A stretch of DNA of 64,000 bases from an uncultured Planctomycetales bacterium. Its GTDB lineage: Bacteria; Omnitrophota; Gorgyraeia; Zapsychrales; JBDRMG01. A program made the position numbers and the translations under genes. The notes below the pieces were generated by a model. It was not told the origin of the DNA. It saw only the letters and a program-made list of their open reading frames with translations, and did not search any database. Shown piece by piece: positions 17,336 to 17,885 of this stretch. Within the stretch, counting starts at the first letter, position 1, and every line of letters starts with the position of its first letter. The stretch lies in NCBI GenBank assembly GCA_964478715.1, contig CAYZIY010000009.1, forward strand, positions 4,113 to 68,112. The letters run 5' to 3'.

Positions 17336-17380
17336 GTCAAAGTATAGATGAAAATAAAATGGTAAGAAAAAATGAAAAGT

Positions 17381-17421
17381 GGCACGGGCCTCTTGAAAAA
17401 GTTGAGACCCGTGCCCTTTTT
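17381..17421. terminator. bidirectional rho-independent terminator between the GT9 gene (+) and the histone-fold gene (-)
   Basis: Hairpin GGCACGGGCCTC / GAGACCCGTGCC with one mismatch, followed by CTTTTTG on the plus strand and preceded by an A-run (T-run on the minus strand). Confidence 0.6.
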
Positions 17422-17439
17422 GCTTCTCAATCAAACAAA

Positions 17440-17649
17440 TTATTTGCAGCAGTCAGAAATTAGAATATCATGACCTCGAACTGTTTTGCGGCCATTGGCT
17501 TCGCATCTTTTTTGGGCTTGATCGATCAGCCAGTATAGGTGGCAATTTAAGGCCTTGAGCGCATCTGTAGAAACATTAAATTTTCCGCCGCCTTTTAAAG
17601 TTTCTTTGGTTTTGGAAGCGATTAACAGCATTTCATTATGTTCAGCCAT
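17440..17649 (-). CDS. small histone-fold DNA-binding protein (DUF1931 / bacterial histone HBb-like)
   Basis: 69 aa, MAEHNEMLLIASKTKETLKGGGKFNVSTDALKALNCHLYWLIDQAQKRCEANGRKTVRGHDILISDCCK. The pattern LxxxSKxK...N.S.....L...........A.....A.GRKTV...DI resembles the short histone-fold proteins of Bdellovibrio/Leptospira and archaeal HMf (AGRKTIKAEDI). Own promoter, ribosome-binding site AAGGA and terminator. It is the only credible minus-strand gene in the window. Confidence 0.6.
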   Translation of the reverse strand: MAEHNEMLLIASKTKETLKGGGKFNVSTDALKALNCHLYWLIDQAQKRCEANGRKTVRGHDILISDCCK

Positions 17650-17692
17650 TTCACTGTTCCTTTCTTTAACTGGTTAATGTGATTTCGTTTTA

Positions 17693-17720
17693 ATTTTATG
17701 CAAGATTTCCTATCCGTCAA
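17693..17720 (-). promoter_or_regulatory. sigma70-like promoter for the histone-fold gene (minus strand: TTGACG-N16-TAAAAT)
   Basis: Minus-strand -35 is complementary to plus 17715-17720; -10 is complementary to 17693-17698; ribosome-binding site AAGGA lies about 9 nt before the ATG. Confidence 0.4.
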
Positions 17721-17783
17721 GTTAATTATAGCCCAAAAGGAAAAAAAAGAGACAGGGGCTCCCCAAAGACCAGGACTCCTTTA

Positions 17784-17812
17784 TTGACCCCTTGCGGAAA
17801 CTATGCTAGAAT
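17784..17812 (+). promoter_or_regulatory. sigma70-like promoter TTGACC-N17-TAGAAT for the hldA-kds-lpt operon
   Basis: TTGACC at 17784-17789 and TAGAAT at 17807-17812. It is divergent from the histone-fold gene promoter. Confidence 0.45.
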
Positions 17813-17885
17813 CAGCGGTTGTTTTAGCTTAGAAAAATGAAAATTGGTGTTTATAACTAGAAATATTAAGATAGGAGGCAGAGAA

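What the first reader, a model, noticed from the sequence alone, without database searches (positions are those of the whole stretch)
17381..17720. Lone minus-strand gene for a histone-fold (DUF1931 / HBb-like) protein inside the LPS supercluster
The 69-aa ORF at 17440-17649 (minus) is the only credible reverse-strand gene in 64 kb. It has its own sigma70-like promoter (TTGACG-N16-TAAAAT), a ribosome-binding site, and a hairpin that can terminate transcription in both directions. Its sequence (...LLIASKTKETLKGGGKFNVSTDALKALNCHLYWLIDQAQKRCEANGRKTVRGHDILI...) carries the GRKTV...DI signature and the helix-strand-helix spacing of short bacterial histone-fold proteins, and resembles archaeal HMf (AGRKTIKAEDI). 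Bacterial histones are rare and only recently recognised as chromatin proteins. Finding one as a divergently transcribed insertion between heptosyltransferase and Kdo genes is unusual.
Basis: partly seen in the sequence, partly recalled or inferred. Interest (0 to 1): 0.7.

Follow-up and report, generated by a model that had tools for sequence, protein, structure and literature searches.

The report
Bacterial histone gene in Omnitrophota
The small reverse-strand gene is real and encodes a short bacterial histone of an already described type (closest to the DNA-wrapping tetramer HLp of Leptospira), sitting by chance at a break in a cell-envelope sugar gene cluster of an uncultured Omnitrophota bacterium.

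Summary
The 69-aa ORF at 17440-17649 (-) is a conserved gene under purifying selection. It has a plausible promoter, a ribosome-binding site and a strong hairpin shared with the upstream gene, and it is the only credible minus-strand gene in the window.

The histone-fold interpretation also holds. A family profile hits the solved bacterial histone HLp of Leptospira perolatii at E=1e-19, HBb of Bdellovibrio at 1e-13 and archaeal HTkC at 2e-10. A confident AlphaFold2 model (pLDDT 86.6) superposes on HLp at 1.2 A rmsd with 50% identity.

Refinement: it is a truncated-alpha3, 'face-to-face' (FtF) type histone. All FtF signature residues (R48, N52, R54, T56, D61) are invariant in its family. It is neither an HBb-type 'bacterial dimer' nor a DUF1931 pseudodimer.

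The family is not rare: at least 529 reference genomes and about 1,659 clusters at 50% identity.

The position inside the LPS cluster is specific to this lineage. More than 20 related clusters lack it there, and 88 homologous loci lie in other neighbourhoods. There is therefore no functional link to LPS.

Verdict: an ordinary new member of a known kind, in a phylum not yet listed for this histone type. Tetramer formation, DNA wrapping and abundance are inferred, not tested.

The parts
17440..17649 (-). Coding sequence of a 69-aa truncated-alpha3 (FtF-type) bacterial histone, 7.7 kDa, pI 8.8
   Evidence: ORF. Purifying selection. Profile hits to HLp, HBb and HTkC. AF2 model with helices at 11-18, 28-51 and 59-62. 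Foldseek top hits are HLp, HBb and HTkC. Protein properties.
17658..17662 (-). Shine-Dalgarno-like AAGGA, 8 nt upstream of the ATG
   Evidence: Read directly from the sequence. Inferred, not tested.
17693..17720 (-). Sigma-70-like promoter: TTGACG, 16-nt spacer, TAAAAT
   Evidence: Consensus scan, 10 of 12 positions. Such matches are not significantly enriched over shuffles in this region, so this is only a candidate.
17374..17421 (.). GC-rich hairpin (core stem 17381-17415) with an A-rich stretch on one side and a T-run on the other. Candidate bidirectional intrinsic terminator shared by the convergent heptosyltransferase and histone genes
   Evidence: Folding on both strands gives dG -25.4 and -30.0 kcal/mol, z -4.8 and -5.5, with 0 of 200 shuffles as stable.

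Best explanation
The gene encodes a single-domain bacterial histone of the truncated-alpha3 family, face-to-face (FtF) subtype. It most likely serves as a sequence-nonspecific nucleoid-associated protein of an uncultured Omnitrophota bacterium.

Proposed mechanism, by homology with HLp of Leptospira perolatii:
- Two monomers pair head-to-tail through their antiparallel alpha2 helices.
- Two dimers then join face-to-face through the end of alpha2, loop L2 and the one-turn alpha3, using R48, N52 and R54, to form a ring-shaped tetramer.
- About 60 bp of DNA wraps around the positively charged rim. The backbone contacts come from A11-S12-K13, the alpha1 lysines K15 and K19, loop L1 (V26, T28) and loop L2 (K55, T56). 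The R54-D61 'RD clamp' holds L2 in place.

The gene is a stand-alone transcription unit placed at an operon boundary of the LPS core/Kdo cluster. It has no functional tie to that cluster.

Shown here: the gene is real and conserved, it has the histone fold, its closest relatives are as stated, the signature residues are conserved, and its genomic position is not conserved.
Inferred: dimer and tetramer formation, DNA wrapping, high expression, and a role in the nucleoid.
For: Sequence and profile:
- phmmer against the PDB gives HLp (9qt0) at 2.7e-8 and HBb (8cmp/8fvx) at about 1e-5.
- A 55-sequence profile gives HLp at 9.6e-20 (73.5 bits), HBb at about 1e-13 (54 bits), HTkC at 1.7e-10, HmvA at 3e-6 and HMfA/B at about 0.01.

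Structure:
- The AF2 model has pLDDT 86.6, an alpha2 helix of 24 residues and an alpha3 helix of 4 residues.
- Foldseek ranks HLp first (50% identity, rmsd 1.2 A, TM-score normalised to the target 0.89), then HBb and HTkC.

Signature residues:
- S12, K13, R48, N52, G53, R54, K55, T56 and D61 are invariant in all 55 homologs.
- They coincide with the FtF HMM-logo residues R48, N52, R54, T56 and D61 (PMC11390915).
- They also coincide with the HLp tetramer residues R49, N53 and R55, the HLp DNA-contact residues A13-S14-K15, K17, K21, T56 and T57, and the R55-D62 clamp (PMC12701072; alignment).
- HBb-type dimers lack R48 and N52.

Taxonomic distribution matches that published for bacterial FtF histones (Bacteriovoracia, Planctomycetota, Myxococcota), with Omnitrophota added.

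Net charge and pI are similar to HLp.

Context:
- Homologs sit as isolated small genes in unrelated neighbourhoods.
- Related LPS clusters lack the gene.

Characterised relatives (L. interrogans, B. bacteriovorus) are abundant, nucleoid-enriched and probably essential (PMC10627809).
Against: - No multimer prediction could be run, so tetramer formation rests on residue conservation alone.
- The protein runs 7 residues (LISDCCK) past the position of HLp's last residue. HLp ends at F63, which lies in the tetramer interface. In the archaeal FtF model the terminal carboxylate itself contacts the R48-equivalent. The tail could therefore alter or block the interface, and in C-terminal length the protein resembles dimeric HBb.
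- Some HLp DNA-contact positions differ: T27 is V26 here and G29 is T28.
- Curated models do not reach their cut-offs: Pfam PF00808 scores 14.4 bits against 21.4, and NCBIfam archaea_histone scores 21 against 50.
- There are no expression or abundance data.
- Whether the genome also encodes HU or IHF is unknown, because only 64 kb was seen.
- Promoter and terminator signals next to homologs are inconsistent.
Confidence: 0.72

Rival explanations
1. It is a truncated-alpha3 histone that works as a dimer, like HBb of Bdellovibrio. It would bend DNA or coat it end-on rather than wrap it around a tetramer, because the C-terminal tail prevents face-to-face association.
For: HBb is the second-best structural and sequence match. 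Like HBb, the protein continues several residues beyond the one-turn alpha3 (alignment). In HLp the C-terminal residue is part of the tetramer interface.
Against: R48 and N52, whose absence distinguishes the bacterial dimers, are invariant here. The profile scores HLp about 20 bits above HBb. Identity is 50% to HLp against 33% to HBb. Bacteriovoracia relatives at 70-78% identity belong to the group classified as FtF.
Confidence: 0.2
2. It is a local, histone-fold transcription regulator of the flanking LPS/Kdo genes, transcribed divergently from the hldE-kdsB-kdsA operon whose promoter region it would bind.
For: The arrangement is divergent with the hldE-like gene. The two promoter-like sites are about 65 bp apart (17720 on - and 17784 on +), a common layout for local regulators.
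Against: None of 88 homologous loci has any of the 7 LPS genes within 4-6 kb. More than 20 related LPS clusters keep the same gene order without this gene, and the same junction holds unrelated cargo in other lineages. The conserved residues are those for backbone contacts and oligomerisation, not base-specific recognition.
Confidence: 0.04
3. It is a chance ORF or a decaying remnant with no function.
For: It is short (69 aa), no curated family model reaches its threshold, and it is labelled 'hypothetical protein' in public records.
Against: There are 55 close homologs at 50-81% identity with 12 invariant columns. Third-codon-position changes dominate. The exact protein was recovered from two independent runs. 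The fold prediction is confident.
Confidence: 0.01

Closest known systems
HLp, the FtF histone of Leptospira perolatii (PDB 9QT0/9QT1/9QT2; Hu et al. 2025, PMC12701072)
   Same: It is the best sequence, profile and structural match: E=1e-19, 50% identity, rmsd 1.2 A. It has the same singlet truncated-alpha3 histone fold. The tetramer-interface residues (R49/N53/R55 in HLp, R48/N52/R54 here), the RD clamp, the A-S-K 'paired ends of helices' motif and the alpha1 lysines are the same. Size and charge are similar.
   Different: The window protein has a 7-residue C-terminal tail (LISDCCK) beyond the position of HLp's terminal F63. It has four cysteines, including C49 next to interface residue R48. 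Several L1 contact residues differ. There is no SMC/MAP neighbourhood. The phylum is different (Omnitrophota against Spirochaetota). Oligomeric state and DNA wrapping are untested.
FtF histones of Bacteriovoracia (Bacteriovorax and Halobacteriovorax; Schwab et al. 2024, PMC11390915; Marinov et al. 2025, PMC11789641)
   Same: These are the closest sequence relatives outside Omnitrophota, at 65-78% identity over residues 6-63, with the same KRCxANGRKT motif.
   Different: Many Bacteriovoracia copies carry long Lys/Ala-rich N-terminal tails and end in ...DILA. The window protein has no basic N-terminal tail and has a Cys-containing C-terminal tail.
HBb (Bd0055) of Bdellovibrio bacteriovorus, a 'bacterial dimer' histone (PDB 8CMP, 8FVX, 9EZZ)
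   Same: It belongs to the same truncated-alpha3 family, with the RKTV loop, the RD clamp and the S-K motif in alpha1. Identity is 33% and rmsd 1.6-2.0 A.
   Different: HBb has S and D where this family has the invariant R48 and N52. HBb is strictly dimeric and bends DNA or binds it end-on.
HTkC of Thermococcus kodakarensis, an archaeal FtF histone (PDB 9F2C)
   Same: It has the truncated-alpha3 fold and a torus tetramer, and it has the arginine equivalent to R48. Profile E=1.7e-10.
   Different: It is archaeal, identity is only about 33-38%, and it forms a separate sequence cluster from the bacterial FtF histones.
Archaeal nucleosomal histones HMfA/HMfB
   Different: They have longer alpha2 and alpha3 helices, tetramerise through a four-helix bundle and polymerise into hypernucleosomes. 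They are only marginal hits here (E about 0.01 with the profile).
DUF1931 pseudodimeric histone-fold proteins (Aquifex Aq_328; Pfam PF09123)
   Same: They share the histone-fold superfamily, and 24 of 55 family members give weak sub-threshold Pfam DUF1931 matches.
   Different: DUF1931 proteins have two histone folds in one chain and lack the usual DNA-binding residues. This protein is a singlet that keeps them, and it gives no PF09123 hit at E<=10.

Membership tests
Truncated-alpha3 histones (Schwab et al. 2024) | Histone fold: helix, loop, long helix, loop, helix | tested here: met
   The AF2 model (pLDDT 86.6) has helices at 11-18, 28-51 and 59-62. The top Foldseek PDB hits are all histones, with probability 1.00.
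Truncated-alpha3 histones (Schwab et al. 2024) | alpha3 reduced to 3-4 residues, and alpha2 4-5 residues shorter than in nucleosomal histones | tested here: met
   The predicted alpha3 is 4 residues (59-62) and alpha2 is 24 residues. It superposes end to end on HLp, HBb and HTkC.
Truncated-alpha3 histones (Schwab et al. 2024) | RxTxxxxD motif (L2 loop plus RD clamp) | tested here: met
   R54, T56 and D61 are invariant in 55 homologs.
Face-to-face (FtF) histones | Conserved dimer-dimer interface residues: R48 and N52 of the FtF logo, which are R49, N53 and R55 in HLp | tested here: met
   R48, N52 and R54 are invariant. The mapping comes from the alignments and the definitions.
Face-to-face (FtF) histones | Forms a torus-shaped homotetramer. 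The category is defined by its predicted or observed tetramer. | not testable with these tools
   Only single-chain prediction is available. AF2-Multimer/AF3 or SEC-MALS is needed.
Face-to-face (FtF) histones | The chain ends directly after alpha3, so that the C-terminal residue or its carboxylate takes part in the interface. This is seen in HLp and archaeal FtF histones but is not a formal criterion. | tested here: inconclusive
   The window protein continues 7 residues past the equivalent of HLp F63. Other family members have tails of 1-7 residues.
Face-to-face (FtF) histones | Sequence closer to FtF references than to bacterial dimers | tested here: met
   The profile scores HLp at 73.5 bits and HBb at 54.4 bits. 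Identity is 50% against 33%.
Bacterial dimer histones (HBb type) | Lack the FtF interface residues R48 and N52 | tested here: not met
   Both residues are present and invariant. HBb has S and D at these columns.
DUF1931 pseudodimeric histones (PF09123) | Two histone folds in one polypeptide, and a match to the Pfam DUF1931 model | tested here: not met
   This is a single fold of 69 aa. There is no PF09123 hit at E<=10. Relatives give only weak hits, the best at E=0.011.
Pfam CBFD_NFYB_HMF (PF00808) / NCBIfam archaea_histone (NF043032) | Score at or above the curated cut-off | tested here: not met
   The scores are 14.4 bits against 21.4 and 21 bits against 50. The models are tuned to longer nucleosomal-type histones. 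The homology is nevertheless clear.
Nucleoid-associated protein (functional class) | High cellular abundance, nucleoid enrichment and non-specific DNA binding | not testable with these tools
   No expression or biochemical data are available. The role is inferred from HLp, the L. interrogans histone and HBb.

The most novel reading that the evidence does not exclude
Omnitrophota carry their own variant of the FtF histone. A cysteine next to the interface arginine (C49) and a cysteine-bearing C-terminal tail (..CK, ..CCK) would bridge the dimer-dimer interface by a disulfide or a metal ion, giving a chromatin tetramer that can be locked by redox state or metal. Alongside this, the near-identity of Omnitrophota and Bacteriovoracia histones (up to 92%) would reflect transfer of histone-based chromatin between lineages of small, host-dependent or predatory bacteria.
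Probability: 0.1. Interest if true: 0.6.

Novelty: new member of a known kind. Interest (0 to 1): 0.3.

Why it matters
It adds Omnitrophota to the bacteria that carry an FtF-type histone. Omnitrophota are a phylum of uncultured, very small bacteria, and in the histone surveys read here they appear only for a different type, the 'IHF histones'. The result also shows that current curated models (Pfam, NCBIfam) miss this family, so these genes remain 'hypothetical protein' in MAG annotations. It does not change the current understanding of bacterial histones. The family, its fold and a plausible DNA-wrapping mechanism have been published. The position inside the LPS cluster, which made the gene stand out, is incidental.

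Tried and rejected
- Functional link to LPS: rejected. No LPS gene lies near any of 88 homologs, and related LPS clusters lack the gene.
- DUF1931 pseudodimer: rejected.
- HBb-type dimer: kept only as a rival, because R48 and N52 are present.
- Foreign origin judged from composition: inconclusive. GC is 0.405 and GC3 0.37, against 0.42-0.46 and 0.43-0.49 in the neighbours, and the gene is too short to decide.
- Second histone copy, tRNA or known RNA family in the window: none found.
- Conserved promoter and terminator architecture around homologs: not consistent. L003 has a strong terminator, L006 has a promoter-like site, and L008 has neither.
- Co-variation of C49 with a C-terminal Cys: weak. 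Fisher p=0.03 without correction for relatedness, and no association in the genome-locus set.
- Naming the source genome: the exact protein carries no name in the collection. The phylum was inferred from named relatives of the histone and of KdsA.
- Invariance of the motif in the 80 genome loci was not used as evidence, because those loci were selected with that motif.

Full report
**1. The observation**

- Gene layout: every chained long ORF in the 64 kb lies on the plus strand. This ORF fills the largest inter-gene gap, 17336-17843, or 17336-17885 using the 342-aa start of the next gene.
- Other minus-strand ORFs: those of 30 aa or more that fall in gaps are short and look like non-coding sequence. 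None matches the histone profile.
- Right end: the apparently empty right end of the window is a plus-strand TrpD-like gene that runs off the end.
- Promoter: TTGACG, 16-nt spacer, TAAAAT is present at 17720-17693 with 10 of 12 matches. Such matches are only marginally commoner here than in shuffles (4 against 1.4 +/- 1.2), so it is a candidate only.
- Ribosome-binding site: an AAGGA lies 8 nt before the ATG.
- Hairpin: the stem at 17381-17415 is very stable on both strands (-25.4 and -30.0 kcal/mol, z -4.8 and -5.5, no shuffle as good). It is flanked by an A-rich stretch and a T-run, and it lies between the two convergent stop codons. It is therefore a plausible bidirectional terminator.
- Rfam families and tRNAs: none in the window.

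**2. It is a real gene**

- The exact protein is encoded on two independently assembled contigs with the same neighbours.
- A word-seeded HMMER search found 55 homologs of 60-80 aa at 50-81% identity. Some are labelled 'histone H3/H4' by JGI, and some are 'hypothetical protein' from Candidatus Omnitrophica MAGs.
- Twelve alignment columns are invariant.
- In codon alignments against 16 homologous loci, differences concentrate at third positions. Against L003 the counts are 13/7/35, with 28 synonymous codon changes out of 66 codons. This is the signature of purifying selection on the protein.

**3. What it is**

*Curated models.* They only graze it. Pfam CBFD_NFYB_HMF scores 14.4 bits against a cut-off of 21.4. 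NCBIfam archaea_histone scores 21 against 50. There is no DUF1931 hit. Across the family, the Pfam hits are weak and mixed.

*Solved structures.* Direct comparison is decisive.
- The single sequence hits HLp of Leptospira perolatii (9qt0) at 2.7e-8 and HBb of Bdellovibrio (8cmp/8fvx) at about 1e-5.
- The family profile hits HLp at 9.6e-20, HBb at about 1e-13, archaeal HTkC at 1.7e-10, HmvA at 3e-6 and HMfA/B at about 0.01.

*Predicted structure.* An AF2 model built from the alignment is confident (pLDDT 86.6). It shows a short alpha1, a 24-residue alpha2 and a 4-residue alpha3. Foldseek against the PDB ranks HLp first (50% identity, rmsd 1.2 A), then HBb and HTkC, followed by NF-Y and nucleosomal histones.

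*Family.* These features define the truncated-alpha3 histone family of Schwab et al. 2024 (PMC11390915).

**4. Which subtype**

Schwab et al. separate two groups. [quoted passage not shown] 'Bacterial dimers' of the HBb type lack R48 and N52.

Hu et al. 2025 (PMC12701072) showed that HLp is a stable tetramer. It is held together by R49, S52 and N53 of one monomer against R55, T61 and F63 of the other. It wraps about 60 bp of DNA, using A13-S14-K15, K17, K21, T27, G29, T56 and T57.

In the window protein the equivalent residues are:
- interface and clamp residues R48, N52, R54, T56 and D61;
- DNA-contact residues A11-S12-K13, K15, K19 and K55-T56.

All of them are invariant or nearly so across the 55 homologs. 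HBb has S and D at the R48 and N52 columns.

Scanning one genome per species found at least 529 genomes with relatives. These are mainly Bacteriovoracaceae and Halobacteriovoraceae, Omnitrophota, Planctomycetota, Myxococcota, Acidobacteriota, Elusimicrobiota and Krumholzibacteriota. This matches the published distribution of bacterial FtF histones, with Omnitrophota added.

I therefore file the protein as an FtF-type truncated-alpha3 histone.

Caveats:
- The tetramer itself could not be predicted with the tools available.
- The protein has a 7-residue tail (LISDCCK) beyond the residue equivalent to HLp's C-terminal, interface-forming F63. This might modify the interface.

**5. Organism**

All named close relatives of the histone and of the neighbouring KdsA are Candidatus Omnitrophota/Omnitrophica. 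The best KdsA identity is only 71%. The window therefore comes from an Omnitrophota lineage with no closely related genome in the collections.

**6. Context**

*Neighbours.*
- Upstream are three Glyco_transf_9 (heptosyltransferase-like) genes.
- Downstream are a PfkB (HldE-like) gene, KdsB, KdsA, a SIS+CBS gene (KdsD-like), a KdsC-like hydrolase and an LptC/LptA-like gene.

*Relatives of the HldE-like gene.* In 80 metagenomic loci carrying a relative, more than 20 keep the order hep1-hep2-hep3-hldE-kdsB-kdsA-kdsD. The hep3-hldE spacer is mostly 45-230 bp. No locus contains a histone homolog. In a 1.17-Mb Omnitrophota contig the spacer is 51 bp.

*Enlarged spacers.* Where the spacer is enlarged it holds unrelated cargo: an IS200/RAYT-like ORF, a TPR protein plus a VapBC-like pair, or a 315-aa ORF.

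*Relatives of the histone.* None of 88 loci carrying a histone homolog has any of the seven LPS genes within 4-6 kb. The inspected ones sit beside KaiBC and two-component genes, between a methyltransferase and a DEAD-box helicase, or after a response regulator.

The terminator hairpin lies on one side, and a good TG-extended promoter (TTGACC, 17-nt spacer, TAGAAT at 17784-17812) lies on the other. It is not a functional association. Composition is slightly AT-shifted but uninformative for so short a gene.

**7. Mechanism and rivals**

*Best-supported reading.* It is a small, basic (pI 8.8) histone that dimerises head-to-tail. It probably tetramerises face-to-face and wraps DNA non-specifically as a nucleoid-associated protein, like HLp.

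*Support from relatives.* The characterised relatives in L. interrogans and B. bacteriovorus are highly abundant, nucleoid-enriched and apparently essential.

*Rivals.*
- An HBb-like dimeric bender is the main rival, at about 0.2.
- A local regulator of LPS genes is argued against by synteny.
- A spurious ORF is refuted.

**8. Novelty**

The fold, the family, the subtype and a mechanism are all published (PMC10627809, PMC11390915, PMC11317129, PMC12701072).

In the papers and supplements searched, Omnitrophota appear only for a different histone type: the 113-aa 'IHF histones'.

This is therefore a new member of a known kind. Interest is modest.

**9. Side observations**

- Omnitrophota and Bacteriovoracia histones are as similar between the two phyla (mean 0.71, up to 0.92) as within each phylum. 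Other phylum pairs are at 0.48-0.65. Possible explanations are gene transfer, extreme constraint or MAG mislabelling.
- A Cys-bearing C-terminal tail recurs in Omnitrophota copies together with C49.
- The highest-scoring relatives in the exhaustive search are tandem doublets from Poseidoniales archaea. One 650-aa protein fuses the fold to a sigma-factor-like N-terminal region.

Noticed in passing
window 17784-17812 (+), with the hairpin at 17374-17421: A good TG-extended sigma-70-like promoter (TTGACC, 17-nt spacer, TAGAAT) precedes the HldE-like gene, and a strong hairpin follows the third heptosyltransferase gene. The 'LPS supercluster' is therefore probably split into two transcription units at this point.
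   Followed up: partly
L091 946-1419; L092 971-1480; L116 489-1436; L126 409-2130; L171 1633-2106: In related Omnitrophota-like contigs, the same heptosyltransferase/HldE junction (or the adjacent one) holds different, unrelated inserts: an IS200/RAYT-like ORF, a possibly secreted 169-aa protein, a 315-aa ORF, a TPR protein plus a VapBC-like pair, and a PilZ gene. The junction is a recurrent insertion point.
   Followed up: partly
L011-L090 (histone cores): Omnitrophota and Bacteriovoracia histones form one intermixed sequence cluster. Mean identity between the phyla is 0.71 (maximum 0.92), the same as within each phylum, whereas other phylum pairs are at 0.48-0.65. MAGs labelled Sulfitobacter, Lysobacterales and Flavobacteriaceae also carry near-identical copies, which suggests gene transfer or mis-binning.
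   Followed up: partly
window 17440-17460 (-), residues 63-69; also L011, L023, L033, L058: A C-terminal tail containing Cys (..CCK..ECK..AC..CCD) recurs in Omnitrophota copies of the histone. It occurs together with Cys49 next to interface residue R48, and it was not seen in Bacteriovoracia copies. The association is weak (Fisher p=0.03, not corrected for relatedness) and its meaning is unknown.
   Followed up: partly
P0056-P0064 (118-132 aa); P0133 (650 aa); P0134: The best-scoring relatives in the exhaustive search are tandem doublets of this histone fold, with ANGRKT in both halves. P0056 is from Candidatus Poseidoniales archaea. One 650-aa protein carries the fold at the C-terminus of a sigma-factor-like region.
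   Followed up: partly
L015, L027, L086, P0066 (N-termini): Many Bacteriovoracia and Acidobacteriota homologs carry Lys/Ala-rich N-terminal tails of 20-35 residues, reminiscent of eukaryotic histone or H1 tails. The window protein has none.
   Followed up: no
window 1-64000: About 60 consecutive genes are all on the plus strand, with overall GC skew +0.124. This is an unusually long co-oriented stretch, broken only by the histone gene.
   Followed up: no
window 17753-17765 (-): A small terminator-like hairpin (TGGGGAGCCCCTG followed by a T-run) lies on the minus strand between the two divergent promoters. The count is within chance expectation for the region.
   Followed up: no
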